A stretch of DNA of 34,998 bases from a virus (Duplodnaviria > Heunggongvirae > Uroviricota > Caudoviricetes > Herelleviridae). The notes below the pieces were generated by a model. It ran no database searches. It was given only the letters and a program-made list of their open reading frames with translations, and had not been told where the DNA came from. A program made the position numbers and the translations under genes. Location of the stretch: the IMG/VR virus record IMGVR_UViG_2706795655_000001, one strand, 5' to 3'. Shown here one piece after another: positions 22,704 through 29,422 of the stretch (the first letter of the stretch is position 1; the number at the start of each line of letters is the position of its first letter).

Positions 22704-22922
22704 ATGGGTTTAAAATTAATGGACGCAAACATGATTATACCTATTACAGAAGGAGGAGTTACAAAGCACTACATAACCGATGCGCCTCACTTCTTAGTAA
22801 CAGAAATGTTTTTAAAGGTTGATAGCGTGATGGAGCTTATAGAGTGGTTAAATGACGGGGTTAACTACTCCTATCAATTCCGTGAATATACTTTTTCATT
22901 AAAATTAAATTTCGATGAATAA
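22704..22922 (+). CDS. Early hypothetical protein
   Basis: Cassette promoter + GGGAG RBS. Confidence 0.75.
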   Translation: MGLKLMDANMIIPITEGGVTKHYITDAPHFLVTEMFLKVDSVMELIEWLNDGVNYSYQFREYTFSLKLNFDE

Positions 22923-22987
22923 AGTTATTGACTTTTAGTAAATATAGTATTAATATGAAAGTGACTTAAAAAGAGGAGCTGTTATAT

Positions 22988-23200
22988 ATGTGGAAAAAGA
23001 AAGAAGTTCAAGAAATGAATGATAGTGAGTTAATAAGCGCTTTTCACTGGAATGTAGTTCGCGTAACAAAAGAGACAAATTCCACGCGCGGGGTTACACA
23101 AAAGAGCCTTAAGGAAGAAAAATATATTTTAGATGAAATGATTAAACGTTTTAATCTTGACGTTGTTGTTTTAAAAGAAAAGCATATTATTAACGGATAA
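22988..23200 (+). CDS. Early hypothetical protein
   Basis: Cassette promoter + GAGGAG RBS. Confidence 0.75.
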   Translation: MWKKKEVQEMNDSELISAFHWNVVRVTKETNSTRGVTQKSLKEEKYILDEMIKRFNLDVVVLKEKHIING

Positions 23201-23214
23201 GGGAGCGGGTTATT

Positions 23215-23511
23215 ATGACTAAACAATTTAAATCAATAGGCGGGTTAAAAAACAGCGTAAAGGCTACGTTAAAGCGTGAGGGCTTTGAACTAAGTAATGA
23301 GGGTAACAAGTGGCGTTATGGTAGTGGTATTCTGGTATCATCTGATAGAGTTGATACAATTACAATAGAGGATATAGGCTTGACAGGTAGTAGGAAAGGT
23401 AAACACCGTCCGGAGGTTCTAGAGGCTTTAGAAGAGTACGGGGCGTTTGTATTTAATGAAAATTGTTATGGCTCTATTGTTGAGGTAATCAGAATAAAAT
23501 TTAATAAATAG
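23215..23511 (+). CDS. Early hypothetical protein
   Basis: AAGGGAG RBS. Confidence 0.7.
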   Translation: MTKQFKSIGGLKNSVKATLKREGFELSNEGNKWRYGSGILVSSDRVDTITIEDIGLTGSRKGKHRPEVLEALEEYGAFVFNENCYGSIVEVIRIKFNK

Positions 23512-23574
23512 TTGTTGACTTTTAGAAAACACGCATGTTACAATAAGGGTAACTTAATAAGGGAGCTGGTACAT

Positions 23575-23745
23575 ATGAAAGCGATAGATAAATCACTTGC
23601 TTGTATTAACCTAAATACAGTAGAAAGACGGTTAAAAGACTTAATTAGTATTGTTGAAAACGGCGGTACTATTAGCACAGATTTAACGTTACAATACATG
23701 TTAGAAGATGTTTTAAAAGTAAAAAGAGTATTAGAGGAGGACTAA
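23575..23745 (+). CDS. Early hypothetical protein
   Basis: Cassette RBS before ATG 23575. Confidence 0.7.
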   Translation: MKAIDKSLACINLNTVERRLKDLISIVENGGTISTDLTLQYMLEDVLKVKRVLEED

Positions 23746-23750
23746 AATAT

Positions 23751-23843
23751 ATGTCATTCAGAGGCTCATTAAAAGTATTGGTTATTGTTGGTTTCTTGTT
23801 TGCAGTCGGAAAGGGTATATCATACGCAATCGTACACTTTTAA
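23751..23843 (+). CDS. 30-aa single-TM peptide (not in ORF track)
   Basis: GAGGAGG RBS; MSFRGSLKVLVIVGFLFAVGKGISYAIVHF. Confidence 0.55.
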   Translation: MSFRGSLKVLVIVGFLFAVGKGISYAIVHF

Positions 23844-23912
23844 AAATAGTTGTTGACTTTTAGTAAATGATAGTTTAAAATGAAATTAACTTAAATAAAG
23901 GGAGCTGTTACA

Positions 23913-24068
23913 ATGGAAAGATACGATGTATATATGACAGAGGTTAAATTTTTCCCAGTTAGAACTAAAATGAGAATTAAGTTTAAAATAGTTGAATCTC
24001 CTTTTAAAAATGGAAACTCTTTATGGTTCGACATGATGAAAAGATTACCGATATTAGTTAAAAAATAG
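23913..24068 (+). CDS. 51-aa early protein (not in ORF track)
   Basis: Cassette promoter + RBS; stop inside next cassette. Confidence 0.7.
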   Translation: MERYDVYMTEVKFFPVRTKMRIKFKIVESPFKNGNSLWFDMMKRLPILVKK

Positions 24069-24131
24069 TTGTTGACTTTTAGAAAACAAGATGATAAAAT
24101 GAAAGTAACTTAAATAAAGGGAGATGTTACA

Positions 24132-24320
24132 ATGTATTATAAAATTAATGTAAGTTTAGATAACTGGCACTTTTTCGCAACTAGTGACCACAGTATAACA
24201 AGCAAAGTACAACTAAACAAGGTTTTACCTATTTTCAAAGAGAAGTTTCCGAAAAGTGAGGGCTATTCTATTAGTGTTATGCTACTTAAAACAGTTGGAG
24301 AAGAAATTGAGATAGATTAA
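24132..24320 (+). CDS. Early hypothetical protein
   Basis: Cassette promoter + RBS. Confidence 0.75.
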   Translation: MYYKINVSLDNWHFFATSDHSITSKVQLNKVLPIFKEKFPKSEGYSISVMLLKTVGEEIEID

Positions 24321-24391
24321 AAAAAAAGTTGTTGACTTTTAGTAAATAAGATGATAAGATGAAATTAACTTAAAAAAGGGAGCTGTTAATT

Positions 24392-24583
24392 ATGAATAAA
24401 GAAAACATCGGTAAAATTCAAGGTCTGGTATTACAGTGTAAAGAGGCGGGGTTATCTTTAGATAGTGAAAACGTGAAAAAAGCTATTGCGTGGCATTCGA
24501 GAGTATTTGATATACCTGTGGAGGTCATCAAGGAAACAATGCAAGAAATGTGGAGTAAAACAAGAGCTAAAAAAGGTTACTAA
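24392..24583 (+). CDS. Early hypothetical protein
   Basis: Cassette promoter + RBS. Confidence 0.75.
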   Translation: MNKENIGKIQGLVLQCKEAGLSLDSENVKKAIAWHSRVFDIPVEVIKETMQEMWSKTRAKKGY

Positions 24584-24662
24584 AAATAGTTGTTGACTTT
24601 TAGAAAACAAACGTGATACAATGATTACAGAAATAAAAAACATATGAAAAGGTGGAATTTAA

Positions 24663-24875
24663 ATGAACTATACAAAATTTTTAGAAGGTAAAAAAATGCA
24701 CATGGAAATCATGAAAAAGTATGATAGATTGGAGGAATTCATGAGCGCGCTTGATACTTGTTTCGATTTATACGAACTAGGGTATTGCTCACAGGAAGAA
24801 CAACGTATCTGGGAAGAAATGAGCGAGATGTCTGCACTAGAAATATATGGTTTGTGGATTGAATCTAAAAAATAA
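24663..24875 (+). CDS. Early acidic protein
   Basis: Cassette promoter + AAAGGTGG RBS. Confidence 0.75.
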   Translation: MNYTKFLEGKKMHMEIMKKYDRLEEFMSALDTCFDLYELGYCSQEEQRIWEEMSEMSALEIYGLWIESKK

Positions 24876-24955
24876 AAATAGTTGTTGACTTTTAGGAAAG
24901 ATACATGCTACAATGATTACAGAAACAAAAAACATATAAAAAGGTGGAATATAAA

Positions 24956-25255
24956 ATGGAAATCAGAGAAATTAATTGGAATGTAGAATTTAAAAAGGAA
25001 ATGACAGAGCTTGAAATTTACGGGATTGAAAGAGTAATCGATACTTATTATAATGATGAAGACTTTGATTTCAATACAGAGGCTTTAGGGCTGGCTTATA
25101 CATCATCTAGTGACTATGCAATGTATAACGTTTGTAACGGTGAATTTACTTATGAAGACATAGTTATAAGTCATTTCGCGGTAACTACACAAGGTCACCT
25201 TGTAATGATTTGTCATGATAACGAAGAATACGAAATAAGATTCGAACTCGTGTGA
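24956..25255 (+). CDS. Early highly acidic protein
   Basis: Cassette promoter + AAAGGTGG RBS before ATG 24956. Confidence 0.75.
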   Translation: MEIREINWNVEFKKEMTELEIYGIERVIDTYYNDEDFDFNTEALGLAYTSSSDYAMYNVCNGEFTYEDIVISHFAVTTQGHLVMICHDNEEYEIRFELV

Positions 25256-25399
25256 GCGAGTATAAACAGGCTTTAGGCTCACAGCGTCGCGGGGTTTATC
25301 CCCGCGGGTAGCAACTAAAATAAATTTTAAATAGTTGTTGACTTTCAGTAAATAAAGTATTAAAATGAAGGTAACTTAAAAAAAGGGAGATGTTTTACA

Positions 25400-26281
25400 A
25401 TGACAAAACAATTAGAATTAACACAATACGACACTTTAGAGGCTTTAGAAGGGGATATCGATGTATTAGAGGCGTTTTATGAGTATGAGGGTTCAACTTA
25501 TGTTTGCGACGCTATTCAAGAAATTGCTGATAAATTTATCCCAATCTATACACATGAATTATGGAAAAACGCTTATGACATGAAAGAATATATAGAAGAG
25601 GCGATGTCACAAGGCTTATGTGAAACGCCACGCGGGGAACAACCAGACCTAGACAAGATTTTCCAAGCAGGTTACTATCAGTATTATACACAAGTGTTAT
25701 ATAATAACGAAGCAGAACTATACTATAATTATATTGCTGTAATCGTTAATAAATGGTTGGAAGGGTTGAACCATGACCAACTAGAAAAGATTGATATTAA
25801 CGAACTAGATGAGCGTATAGAAGAGGAAAGAGCCGATATTGATAATAATAGTTATATGGAAGATATGGAAGACATCGCAAAACGTATTATTGCAGAATGT
25901 AAAGGAAAAGTAAATAAGGATGCATCATGGGAAAATTATGGAGATGTAAACGCGTTGGAGCATGGGGGCGTATTCATTAAAAAAGATATGGATTACCCGG
26001 GCGACAAATGTTATTATATCGTTAAACTTATCAATATGACCTCTGCATGCGGTGAAGATGGTTTTACAATAGAAGAGGGGTATGTAGATTTAAAAGACGA
26101 CTGGATAGACTGGGAAGCCGTTGAAAGTACTTGTGATATTGCGGACAGTGACGAAATTAAAGTGGTCGATGTATTCGGGTATTACGGGGTTAACGAGTTT
26201 AACGGGGAATCCACTATATACGATAATGAAAGCGAAGTGTTAGAGCATTTAGCGAATATTGGAATTTGTATCGAAAATTAA
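25400..26281 (+). CDS. Ocr (T7 gp0.3)-like DNA-mimic domain fused to a second acidic domain
   Basis: DAIQEIADKFIPIY...GL...DLDKIFQAGYYQYYTQVL aligns with remembered Ocr DAIHMAADNAVPHY...GL...DVIRILQARIYEQLTIDL; about 69 D/E vs 21 K/R (hand count); own early promoter. Confidence 0.7.
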   Translation: MTKQLELTQYDTLEALEGDIDVLEAFYEYEGSTYVCDAIQEIADKFIPIYTHELWKNAYDMKEYIEEAMSQGLCETPRGEQPDLDKIFQAGYYQYYTQVLYNNEAELYYNYIAVIVNKWLEGLNHDQLEKIDINELDERIEEERADIDNNSYMEDMEDIAKRIIAECKGKVNKDASWENYGDVNALEHGGVFIKKDMDYPGDKCYYIVKLINMTSACGEDGFTIEEGYVDLKDDWIDWEAVESTCDIADSDEIKVVDVFGYYGVNEFNGESTIYDNESEVLEHLANIGICIEN

Positions 26282-26342
26282 TTGTTGACTTTTAGAAAAC
26301 ACTCATGTTACAATAAGGATAACTTAATAAGGGGGTTACATC

Positions 26343-26600
26343 ATGCGAGATATTGAATATATTCTAGATGACTTGGATAAGTGGGCGCATATTCTCACAG
26401 GGCTGCACATTGAAGTTATTAAAGATATTACACCAGAGGAAAAAGAACATTTTGAGAACGAAATAGAGTTCGTGAGAGAGAAAATAAGAGAATTGCAAAA
26501 TGAATTAGAAGAGGCGGAAAAAGAAGAGGCTAAAAGGTTTAATACAGCAAATGAGCGCGCTATGTCAGAGGCGGGACATAATGAAAGGGACTTCCTTTAA
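26343..26600 (+). CDS. Early acidic coiled-coil protein
   Basis: Cassette promoter + AAGGGGG RBS. Confidence 0.75.
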   Translation: MRDIEYILDDLDKWAHILTGLHIEVIKDITPEEKEHFENEIEFVREKIRELQNELEEAEKEEAKRFNTANERAMSEAGHNERDFL

Positions 26601-26634
26601 AAAGGAGGTTCCCACGCTAAAGGGGGCGGGTTAC

Positions 26635-26817
26635 ATGGCATTATCGAAAAGAGAACGTATGCAGGAAATGGAAAGAGAACTAAGAAACTTACAAATAGTA
26701 AAAGATAAACTTATCGAAAAGTATGTAAATGAATTAGGCGTATCGGAAGAAAAGGCGCTCGAAATGTGGCAAGTAATGTATGATATCACTAAAAAGGTAT
26801 GGAGTGAAGAGGACTAA
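26635..26817 (+). CDS. Early hypothetical protein
   Basis: AAGGGGG RBS before ATG 26635. Confidence 0.7.
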   Translation: MALSKRERMQEMERELRNLQIVKDKLIEKYVNELGVSEEKALEMWQVMYDITKKVWSEED

Positions 26818-26886
26818 AAATAGTTGTTGACTTTTAGTAAAAGATAGTTTAAAATGAAAGTAACTTAAAAAAGGGAGCTGTTACAT

Positions 26887-27129
26887 ATGTTAACATTAGA
26901 AGAGAAAAAAGAAATTTCAAAGGGTTTTGGTTTAAAAGTGAATGAAGTTGAGGAAATGATAACTAAAGGTGAAATAGACATGTATAAGTCATATTCAATG
27001 TTTTTCTACGATATGCACGAAAATAAAAGTAGAGATGATTTAATAAGTTTGTTGGAAAGTGGAGAAACTGCCCTAGATAATTTAGAATACTGCACATTAT
27101 CAAGCGGAAAAGTAGCGTATATTTTCTAA
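26887..27129 (+). CDS. Early hypothetical protein
   Basis: Cassette promoter + RBS. Confidence 0.75.
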   Translation: MLTLEEKKEISKGFGLKVNEVEEMITKGEIDMYKSYSMFFYDMHENKSRDDLISLLESGETALDNLEYCTLSSGKVAYIF

Positions 27130-27199
27130 AAAAAGTTGTTGACTTTTAGTAAATAATAGTTTAAAATGAAATTAACTTAAAAAAGGGAGTTGTCTTACA

Positions 27200-27355
27200 A
27201 TGACAAAATTAGAAACGTTAATTAATGGCGGTACGGTTACTATTGAAAAGTTTAGAACGCTGGATAATTTTCTAGATGAATGTGAGCACAATGATTTAGA
27301 GGTTGAAGTGGGAAGAGATGAAGATAATTTTTACACTGTTACACTAAAGAAATAA
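27200..27355 (+). CDS. 51-aa acidic early protein (not in ORF track)
   Basis: Cassette promoter + RBS; TAA 27353-27355 runs into next cassette. Confidence 0.7.
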   Translation: MTKLETLINGGTVTIEKFRTLDNFLDECEHNDLEVEVGRDEDNFYTVTLKK

Positions 27356-27423
27356 ATAGTTGTTGACTTTTAGTAAATAATAGTTTAAAATGAAATTAAC
27401 TTAAAAAAGGGAGCTGTTTTATA

Positions 27424-27765
27424 ATGACAAATTATAACTACTATTCACAAAATGGATTAAGAGGCGAATTACATGTAATCAGTGAAAATAAATTTATTTA
27501 TAAAGTTGAGTCATACCGACAATTAGAGAGTTCGGAAATAGGTTTCTTATATAATCTTGAATTGGTGGCGGGGTATGATTACATTAACCCGGACTATAGC
27601 AACGTTCAAGGGTATGTATCTAAAGAAAACTTTGTAGAAAATATCCACTTGGAGCAAATAACGTTTTACCCTATGTCAGAGACACTGGCAGAGGCACTAG
27701 ACGACAACGGTTATAAGGTCATTAATATTAACGATTACAAGATACACCAATTTAAAGGGTGTTAG
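27424..27765 (+). CDS. Early hypothetical protein
   Basis: Cassette promoter + RBS. Confidence 0.75.
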   Translation: MTNYNYYSQNGLRGELHVISENKFIYKVESYRQLESSEIGFLYNLELVAGYDYINPDYSNVQGYVSKENFVENIHLEQITFYPMSETLAEALDDNGYKVININDYKIHQFKGC

Positions 27766-27790
27766 GCGCTCATATAGAGCGTTTAACTCT
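27764..27790 (+). terminator. Possible weak terminator hairpin
   Basis: AGGCGCTC-ATATA-GAGCGTTT with short T tail. Confidence 0.4.
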
Positions 27791-27875
27791 TCCTAATATA
27801 AATAGTATATAATAAATGTTAGAACGTTGTAAGAGGTTGTGAGGAGTCTTAAAATACATGATAGAGGTGGTATAA

Positions 27876-28052
27876 ATGAAAATAAGTGATGATGTCCGTT
27901 ATTTGCAAAAAGAATTACATGATATAATTGATAAAATACATAAAGAAACAATAAAACCGTTTTACTTACAAGACAAATATTTAATCGATTGCTTATATGT
28001 CCAAAAGTGGGGACTAGAAGACCTAATAAAAGATTTAATGGAAAGTTGTTGA
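27876..28052 (+). CDS. 58-aa early protein (not in ORF track)
   Basis: AGAGGTGG RBS; TGA stop lies inside the next -35 box. Confidence 0.6.
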   Translation: MKISDDVRYLQKELHDIIDKIHKETIKPFYLQDKYLIDCLYVQKWGLEDLIKDLMESC

Positions 28053-28109
28053 CTTTTAGAAAACAATGGTTTAAAATGAAGGTAACTTAAAAAAAGGGAG
28101 CTGTTATAT

Positions 28110-28436
28110 ATGTTAGTTATCAAAGTGAAAAAGAAAGTAGATGCAACGGAATTTGTTAATAATTTTAAACTATTGTTTAATACGTTACAAAGTGGTCATC
28201 ATGTATTTACATTCTATAATACAGTTGAAAAAGAGTGGGTGTACTTATTACGCCACGCGGACGGAACTTTTAAAACTATCAGTGTACACCAAACAAGAGA
28301 TAAGGACGCGAACACTATAGAAGAAATATCGGATATTGAATCATTTGTTTGGAAAAATAGAAAGTATATTAATAATAACATTAGTGATGATGTAACTATA
28401 CACCAATTTTGTAGTTCTGATTTAACTTATTACTAA
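28110..28436 (+). CDS. Early hypothetical protein
   Basis: Cassette promoter + RBS. Confidence 0.75.
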   Translation: MLVIKVKKKVDATEFVNNFKLLFNTLQSGHHVFTFYNTVEKEWVYLLRHADGTFKTISVHQTRDKDANTIEEISDIESFVWKNRKYINNNISDDVTIHQFCSSDLTYY

Positions 28437-28516
28437 AAATAGTTGTTGACTTTTAGCAAAAGATAGTTTAAAATGAAATTAAGTTAAACAAAACAAATTA
28501 AAGGGAGCTGTTACAT

Positions 28517-28711
28517 ATGAATAAATTCGCCGATATTTCTAAAATTGATACATGGACTACGGATGAATTAAAGAAAGCCGTTAAATACTATGAAGTGCAG
28601 TTAAAAGACCCGCGCACGGATGACAATGAAAGACGTTGGTTAAACCGCGCTGTTACTAAATGTGAATCGTTATTGAATCCCCCGTCCGAGTGGGAAAATC
28701 TTTTTAAATAG
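28517..28711 (+). CDS. Early hypothetical protein
   Basis: Cassette promoter + RBS. Confidence 0.75.
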   Translation: MNKFADISKIDTWTTDELKKAVKYYEVQLKDPRTDDNERRWLNRAVTKCESLLNPPSEWENLFK

Positions 28712-28785
28712 TTGTTGACTTTTAGTAAAATAAGGTTTAAAATGAAAGTAAGTTAAACAAAACAAATTAAAGGGAGCTGTTAATT

Positions 28786-29316
28786 ATGACAGATACATTA
28801 AAAGCGGTTGAAATTGGTACTCAAGTATTAGCTAGTGAACTAGTCGGAAAGAGTGGCTTTAATATCGCTCATGATACAACTTATATCGATAACGTGAATA
28901 GTGTCAAATGGTTTAGTGCAACTAAAACAGCGGTGGTTATTACTTATGATGGTTACCAAACAGTGACAGTACCCGCAAATGAGGTTTATGTATGGGTTAA
29001 AGAAAATGCTATCAGTTACGAGGATATGACATACAACTTTTTAGGGCGTAACTGGAAAGAGAAATACAACTATACAGAGGATAACAGCACATATGCAAGC
29101 TATGACAAGAAAATAAAAGCACTTATAAAAGAGAATGCAGGGAAGATATTATATCATGAATGTAATAGCGCGTGGGAACATATTGATAGTGATGTTAAAA
29201 AAGCGCTTGGAATCTTTAGAGGCGTTAAAACTGTAAAAGACTATTCAGTGTCAGAACTAGCAAAAATATACGTAACATCACAACGCGAACTATTTAGACT
29301 AGTTGACCCAGAATAA
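28786..29316 (+). CDS. Early hypothetical protein
   Basis: Cassette promoter + RBS. Confidence 0.8.
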   Translation: MTDTLKAVEIGTQVLASELVGKSGFNIAHDTTYIDNVNSVKWFSATKTAVVITYDGYQTVTVPANEVYVWVKENAISYEDMTYNFLGRNWKEKYNYTEDNSTYASYDKKIKALIKENAGKILYHECNSAWEHIDSDVKKALGIFRGVKTVKDYSVSELAKIYVTSQRELFRLVDPE

Positions 29317-29422
29317 AAAATAGTTGTTGACTTTTAGAAAACAAGATGATAAGATTAAATTAAGTTAATAAGGAGGCTTGCTTATACAGGAGCCTCTAAT
29401 AAATAAAAGGGAGCTGTTATAT

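What the first reader, a model, noticed from the sequence alone, without database searches (positions are those of the whole stretch)
25400..26281. Ocr-like DNA mimic in a Gram-positive phage, fused to a second acidic domain
Seen: residues ~35-105 (DAIQEIADKFIPIYTHELW...QGL..DLDKIFQAGYYQYYTQVLY) keep the pattern of T7 Ocr as I remember it (DAIHMAADNAVPHYYADIF...SGL..DVIRILQARIYEQLTIDLW). The protein is very acidic (~69 D/E vs ~21 K/R) and has its own strong early promoter. It is about 2.5 times the length of Ocr, with an extra C-terminal domain (WENYGDVNALEHGGVF...). Known: Ocr blocks type I restriction-modification and BREX. Inference: an anti-restriction mimic whose second domain may target another defence or DNA-binding protein, or lengthen the mimicked DNA.
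Basis: partly seen in the sequence, partly recalled or inferred. Interest (0 to 1): 0.75.

Follow-up and report, generated by a model that had tools for sequence, protein, structure and literature searches.

The report
Ocr-like DNA mimic fused to orphan domain
An early gene of a Bacillus cereus-group phage encodes a true but distant relative of the T7 anti-restriction DNA mimic Ocr joined to a second acidic domain of unknown function that also exists as a stand-alone phage gene, so it is probably a two-part anti-defence protein, but databases already label it Ocr-like and nobody has tested it.

Summary
ORF 25400-26281 (+) encodes a 293-aa protein with exactly 69 D/E and 21 K/R (pI 4.05).

Residues 1-172 are a genuine remote homologue of T7 Ocr:
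- Profile-profile comparison gives 95% probability, E 3e-8.
- The family profile's top PDB hit is 1s7z.

Pfam's ocr model misses the protein. This domain adds a roughly 50-residue helical extension to the Ocr core.

Residues 173-293 are a separate acidic alpha/beta domain with no Pfam, PDB or named relative. It occurs mostly alone in Bacillus-phage early regions and terminal repeats. In 7 of 7 such records there is no Ocr-like gene, so it works autonomously and is unlikely to be a mere extension of the mimic.

Fused homologues are mosaics whose domains have recombined independently. One breakpoint lies at the domain junction.

The Ocr-like call is not new: the identical BillyBob protein is deposited as 'Ocr-like protein' and PHROG 2568 holds both proteins. 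This scan also met the same fusion on three other genomes. No experiment exists. The promoter is real, but nearly every gene in this early array has one. Interest is moderate.

The parts
25338..25366 (+). Sigma-A-type promoter-like site (TTGACT, 17 nt, TAAAAT), one copy of the unit repeated before most genes of this early array
25383..25389 (+). Ribosome-binding site AAGGGAG, 10 nt before the ATG
   Evidence: read directly from the sequence
25400..26281 (+). CDS of the 293-aa two-domain acidic protein, stop codon included; 100% identical to BillyBob ULF48893.1 'Ocr-like protein'; PHROG 3460
25442..25756 (+). Ocr-core fold, residues 15-119, which superposes on T7 Ocr residues 6-110
25772..25912 (+). 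Helical extension of the Ocr-like domain, residues 125-171 (helices 125-129, 133-144, 153-171); absent from T7 Ocr but typical of the 160-180 aa Firmicutes-phage subfamily
25916..26278 (+). C-terminal acidic alpha/beta domain, residues 173-293; conserved motif W-x-N-Y-G-D-V-N-x-x-E-H-G-G plus D230, D233, W235, Y262; PHROGs 12969, 38432 and 17818 (unknown function); fold unassigned
25915..25945 (+). Recombination breakpoint at the domain junction in CAM003-type phages: nucleotide identity is 70-81% upstream and falls to 50-57% downstream

Best explanation
The gene encodes a bivalent early counter-defence protein made of two autonomous acidic modules. Module 1 (residues 1-172) is a distant homologue of T7 Ocr. 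It has the Ocr core fold, an Ocr-like net charge and an extra helical hairpin. It most likely acts as a DNA mimic soon after genome entry, occupying the DNA-binding groove of host modification-dependent defences; type I R-M methyltransferase/endonuclease and BREX PglX are the known Ocr targets, and BREX was first shown in Bacillus cereus. Module 2 (residues 173-293) belongs to a separate, unnamed alpha/beta family that is usually a free-standing early gene of about 120 aa. It most likely binds and blocks a second host protein, either another defence component or a DNA-binding protein. Fusion delivers both modules in fixed stoichiometry from one early promoter. Shown here: homology, fold, charge, domain autonomy, mosaic recombination and early-array context. 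Inferred: DNA mimicry, dimerisation, the targets, and any function of module 2.
Confidence: 0.6

Rival explanations
1. The Ocr-like module is a DNA mimic aimed at host-takeover targets rather than at restriction or BREX, for example RNA polymerase, HU or other nucleoid proteins. On this view the protein belongs to the SPO1-style host shut-off programme.
For: T7 Ocr itself has been solved bound to bacterial RNA polymerase (6r9b, listed). SPO1-type phages use acidic DNA mimics against HU (Gp46; PMC8892312). The gene sits in an array of early genes of unknown function resembling a host-takeover module.
Against: The best-documented, high-affinity targets of the only characterised homologue are type I R-M and BREX PglX (PMC3439906, PMC7261183). 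No similarity to Gp46 was found in this neighbourhood, and SPO1 lacks the C-domain.
Confidence: 0.2
2. The C-terminal domain has no target of its own. It only serves the mimic, by extending the acidic surface, driving oligomerisation or stabilising the protein.
For: The C-domain is as acidic as the N-domain, with net charge -22. The linker is very short. The fusion is retained across divergent Bastillevirinae, including DIGNKC-type proteins at 26-39% identity.
Against: The domain is mostly a stand-alone gene (70 solo against 17 fused). It occurs in genomes with no Ocr-like gene (0 of 7). It also combines with other unrelated extensions. Most Ocr-like proteins lack it (84 N-only), and its alleles reassort independently of the N-domain.
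Confidence: 0.15
3. The resemblance to Ocr is convergence of acidic helical proteins and not homology, so the 'Ocr-like' label is an annotation artefact.
For: Pairwise BLASTP gives E 0.13. Pfam ocr does not hit the protein. Foldseek E-values are about 1. A PHROG is a merged remote-homology cluster, so a hit to it is not independent evidence.
Against: Three independent lines agree in register: profile-profile E 3e-8, profile against PDB with Ocr as top hit, and a structural match that is rank 1 and covers 91% of Ocr. Ocr-invariant positions D36, P47, G70, D77, Q83 and A84 are matched. The equally acidic C-domain scores nothing against Ocr.
Confidence: 0.05

Closest known systems
T7 gp0.3 Ocr (PDB 1s7z, 2y7c, 6r9b, 8zek; Pfam PF08684; PHROG 2568)
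   Different: About 22% identity, and below Pfam's threshold. It has an extra helical hairpin of about 50 residues and a fused 121-residue alpha/beta domain. The host is Gram-positive and the virus is a large myovirus rather than a T7-like podovirus. Dimer formation and targets are untested.
Stand-alone Ocr-like proteins of Bacillus phages (Tsamsa gp18, Deep Blue Blue_024, MrDarsey and others; PHROG 2568)
   Same: Same 160-180 aa domain including the helical extension, at 42-58% identity. The Deep Blue type is the sister group of the fused clade's N-domain.
   Different: They lack the C-terminal domain. In Deep Blue the C-domain homologue is a separate 224-aa gene two genes upstream.
Polyvalent proteins of phages and conjugative elements (Iyer et al. 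2017, PMC5512222)
   Same: Several conflict-related modules are joined in one polypeptide. Relatives of this Ocr-like domain are fused to LPD24 and PBECR3, names from that work, and also to DUF3846 and DUF6908.
   Different: Only two small domains are present. There is no evidence of virion packaging or injection. That study reported Ocr searches as recovering only a phyletically limited set, so this combination is not part of its catalogue as far as I could see.
Other acidic phage DNA mimics of Bacillus phages (SPO1 Gp46, Gp44)
   Same: They are small acidic early proteins of Herelleviridae that block DNA-binding host proteins (PMC8892312).
   Different: No sequence similarity was detected (tested on the neighbouring gene), and SPO1 has no C-domain homologue. 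The folds and targets are different.

Membership tests
Ocr (Pfam PF08684) | Scores above the curated gathering threshold (25 bits) of the Pfam ocr model | tested here: not met
   No hit for the whole protein or the N-domain. Relatives reach only 17.7-20.1 bits or E 3.5e-5. T7 Ocr as positive control scores 215 bits.
Ocr superfamily (PHROG 2568 'ocr-like anti-restriction') | Significant match to the PHROG profile that contains T7 Ocr | tested here: met
   Residues 1-172 score E 2.2e-38. T7 Ocr scores E 2.5e-57 in the same PHROG.
Ocr superfamily | Independent profile-level homology to bona fide Ocr sequences | tested here: met
   hhalign gives 95.1% probability, E 3e-8. The profile's top PDB hit is 1s7z at E 6e-4. 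The true-Ocr HMM hits 35 of 84 solo relatives in register.
Ocr superfamily | Ocr fold | tested here: met
Ocr superfamily | Very high net negative charge, conserved across the family | tested here: met
   The N-domain has net charge -26. Solo relatives have a median of -30 and true Ocr a median of -26.
Ocr superfamily | Homodimer that mimics about 24 bp of bent B-DNA | not testable with these tools
   No multimer prediction and no model coordinates were available. Sequence around Ocr F54-A58 is not conserved, though the aligned positions stay hydrophobic; the identity of the interface residues comes from memory of Zavilgelsky 2009.
Ocr superfamily | Binds and inhibits type I R-M and/or BREX PglX | not testable with these tools
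   No experimental report was found for any Bacillus-phage member.
Polyvalent proteins (Iyer 2017) | Multiple effector or counter-defence domains in one polypeptide of a phage or conjugative element, typically delivered with the DNA | tested here: inconclusive
   The protein has two autonomous domains, and relatives are fused to LPD24 or PBECR3. There are only two domains here, no sign of packaging, and expression from an early promoter instead.
C-domain family (PHROG 12969 / 38432 / 17818) | Significant match to these PHROG profiles and to the solo-protein alignment A3 | tested here: met
   E 3.9e-21, 4.1e-10 and 6.9e-8 against the PHROGs. The A3 HMM scores 3e-43. All members are of unknown function.

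The most novel reading that the evidence does not exclude
The C-terminal domain family (W-x-NYGDVNP-x-EHGG motif, about 120 aa, acidic alpha/beta) is a new autonomous anti-defence or DNA-mimic module of Bacillus phages. On this reading the fused protein disarms two different host systems at once, with the two halves swapped by recombination as hosts change their defences.
Probability: 0.35. Interest if true: 0.6.

Novelty: new variant of a known kind. Interest (0 to 1): 0.42.

Why it matters
Curated surveys treat Ocr as confined to T7-like coliphages. AntiDefenseFinder finds it only in Teseptimavirus and Kayfunavirus, and Iyer 2017 found only a limited set of relatives. This family shows that the Ocr fold is widespread in Firmicutes phages, in a longer form, and that it is used as a building block joined to several other conflict domains. 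If the mimic blocks Bacillus type I R-M or BREX, it would be a practical tool for Bacillus genetics and phage work. The orphan C-domain would be a well-defined candidate for a new counter-defence function, already pre-sorted into solo and fused forms for testing. The matter is tempered by the existing database label, the lack of any assay, and the fact that this scan has already reported the same fusion on three other genomes.

Tried and rejected
- A combined alignment of fused, N-only and C-only proteins (A4) misplaced the C-only rows and was discarded. A5 and A2 were used instead.
- Foldseek of the full-length model against the PDB gave nothing.
- The wide VIA search of the full-length model was swamped by helical hits.
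- BFVD returned only uncharacterised Bacillus-phage proteins.
- The ESM Atlas returned nothing.
- Pfam found nothing for the 50 C-domain relatives or for C-domain proteins with extensions.
- The C-domain profile had no PDB sequence hit.
- The C-domain is not related to DUF3846, DUF6908 or LPD24, the other partners of the Ocr-like domain.
- SPO1 has no C-domain homologue, so no named host-takeover protein explains it.
- The word-indexed search with the C-domain found one unnamed protein, and cluster look-ups gave only 'hypothetical' names.
- The downstream 'DNA mimic domain' gene is not detectably like SPO1 Gp46.
- The question of one or two origins of the fusion could not be settled, because P0244/DIGNKC sits on a very long branch.

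Full report
**What is there.** ORF 25400..26281 on the + strand encodes a 293-aa protein. The two halves are about equally acidic, with net charge -26 for residues 1-172 and -22 for residues 173-293. A TTGACT-17-TAAAAT promoter-like site lies at 25338-25366, and an AAGGGAG ribosome-binding site lies 10 nt before the ATG. The promoter is therefore real but not specific to this gene. The gene is one member of an SPO1-style early array lying next to the terminal repeat.

**Source.** The window is a Bacillus cereus-group myovirus of the Herelleviridae, subfamily Bastillevirinae (Bequatrovirus-like). It is 97.6% identical at nucleotide level to phage BillyBob over this region. The BillyBob protein is 100% identical and is already deposited as 'Ocr-like protein'. 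vB_BcgM calls its homologue 'OCR-like antirestriction protein', and LY2 calls its homologue 'type I DNA restriction enzymes inhibitor'. PHROGs places the whole protein in phrog_3460 (unknown function, E 5e-120). It places residues 1-172 in phrog_2568 'ocr-like anti-restriction' (E 2.2e-38) and residues 176-292 in three unknown-function PHROGs. T7 Ocr itself belongs to phrog_2568.

**Is the N-terminal part really Ocr-like?** Direct tests are weak. Pfam's ocr model PF08684 does not hit the protein, while T7 Ocr scores 215 bits against it. A PHROG is a merged cluster, so I ran independent tests.
- A 45-sequence alignment of the N-domain family, containing no T7-like sequences (A2), was compared by hhalign with a 23-sequence alignment of bona fide Ocr proteins that all carry PF08684 (A1).
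- The A2 profile searched against all 177,635 distinct PDB sequences returns T7 Ocr (1s7z) as the top hit, at E 6e-4.
- Four of the 45 family members individually reach Pfam ocr, with a best E of 3.5e-5. It is the only Pfam family hit by more than one member.
- An HMM built only from true Ocr proteins detects 35 of 84 solo relatives, always in register, but none of the fused proteins directly.
- As a composition control, the equally acidic C-domain family shows nothing against Ocr.

I conclude that residues 15-119 are an Ocr core. Residues 125-171 form a helical extension that T7 Ocr lacks and that is typical of this 160-180 aa subfamily.

**Architecture and autonomy.** The exhaustive search found 298 relatives. 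Among the 171 proteins I classified with domain HMMs, 17 are fused (N plus C), 84 have only the Ocr-like domain and 70 have only the C-domain, with a median length of 122 aa. The fused set consists of 16 close relatives plus the very divergent DIGNKC-type protein.
- In 13 viral-contig loci encoding a C-domain relative, none has an Ocr-like domain within 10 kb.
- In 7 whole records with a solo C-domain, four of them at least 97% complete, none has an Ocr-like domain anywhere. Positive controls scored 1e-60 to 1e-65.
- Tsamsa has the Ocr-like gene without the C-domain.
- In Deep Blue the two are separate genes about 850 bp apart, in the opposite order.
- Solo C-domain genes often lie in terminal repeats of Herelleviridae.

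In my tests that holds only within B. cereus-group Bastillevirinae.

Negative charge is conserved in both families. Solo N-domains have a median net charge of -30, true Ocr -26 and solo C-domains -17.

**Modularity.** In other relatives the Ocr-like domain is joined to LPD24, DUF6908, DUF3846 or a PBECR3 nuclease domain. LPD24 and PBECR3 are names from the polyvalent-protein work (PMC5512222). The C-domain is unrelated to the LPD24, DUF6908 and DUF3846 partners.

Among fused homologues the two halves have discordant histories, in both directions:
- Window against the CAM003 type: N 73%, C 42%.
- Window against the Chotacabras type: N 50-52%, C 72-78%.
- P0004 against P0006: N 72%, C 98%.

Sliding-window nucleotide identity places the CAM003 breakpoint at the domain junction, where identity of 70-81% falls to 50-57% around residues 172-186. 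In Chotacabras the breakpoint lies near residue 100-110, at the end of the Ocr core (consistent). Rate differences cannot explain opposite patterns, so the halves recombine independently while the fused architecture is kept.

**Mechanism.** Established knowledge: Ocr is a dimeric DNA mimic whose activity depends on the dimer and on bulk negative charge (PMC3439906). It blocks type I R-M and BREX, and BREX was demonstrated from B. cereus (PMC7261183). Inference: the N-module acts in the same way early in infection, and the C-module, being autonomous, has its own target. My confidence in the overall statement is 0.6. I put homology at about 0.9, DNA-mimic anti-restriction function at about 0.6, and an independent inhibitory role for the C-module at about 0.5. 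The rivals are a host-takeover target such as RNAP or HU (0.2), a purely auxiliary C-domain (0.15) and convergence rather than homology (0.05).

**Novelty.** The 'Ocr-like' label already exists in GenBank and PHROGs. Papers only repeat the annotation (PMC12651245). Curated surveys do not reach this family. I found no experiment and no description of the fusion or of the C-domain. This scan has already reported the same fusion on three other genomes (e1-5438394, e1-5384301, e1-5698624), and the two that were followed up reached the same reading. I class it as a new variant of a known kind, of moderate interest.

Noticed in passing
window 22900-29400: Nearly every small + strand gene is preceded by the same TTGACT-17/18-TAAAAT or TGnTACAAT promoter-like unit: 51 sites against 30.5 expected from shuffles. 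This looks like an SPO1-style early gene array. All ten neighbouring proteins scanned fall in PHROGs of unknown function.
   Followed up: partly
window 26343-26600: The acidic 85-aa gene directly downstream (25 D/E, 12 K/R) is annotated 'DNA mimic domain containing protein' in vB_BcgM and Chotacabras. It falls in PHROG 6492 (unknown function) and shows no BLASTP similarity to the SPO1 HU-inhibiting mimic Gp46, so that label is unsupported here.
   Followed up: partly
window 24944-25255: The gene directly upstream encodes a very acidic 103-aa protein (22 D/E, 5 K/R, pI 4.09; PHROG 4874, unknown function). It could be another mimic-like early protein.
   Followed up: no
window 25288-25306: A GC-rich hairpin (7-bp stem CGCGGGG/CCCCGCG with a 5-nt loop) lies between the upstream gene and the promoter. 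It has no following T-run, so it is not a canonical intrinsic terminator.
   Followed up: no
P0165, P0253, P0262, P0260, P0173 (metagenomic relatives): The Ocr-like domain also occurs fused to LPD24, DUF6908, DUF3846 or a PBECR3 nuclease domain. It also occurs with unassigned N-terminal extensions of 110-200 aa (P0157, P0159, P0235). These Ocr fusions appear not to be described.
   Followed up: partly
L023 838-1713 (Chotacabras gp263): The fused homologue is annotated 'HU-like domain-containing DNA binding protein'. Its cluster has no precomputed Pfam domain and it matches the same two domain HMMs as the window protein, so the HU label looks wrong.
   Followed up: partly
MN364664.1 121426-121872 (hit H71): A record named Xanthomonas phage Xoo-sp15 (157 kb) carries a C-domain homologue like those of B. 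cereus phages. It is the only non-Bacillus named hit among 146 records. The cause could be a host mislabel or a transfer.
   Followed up: no
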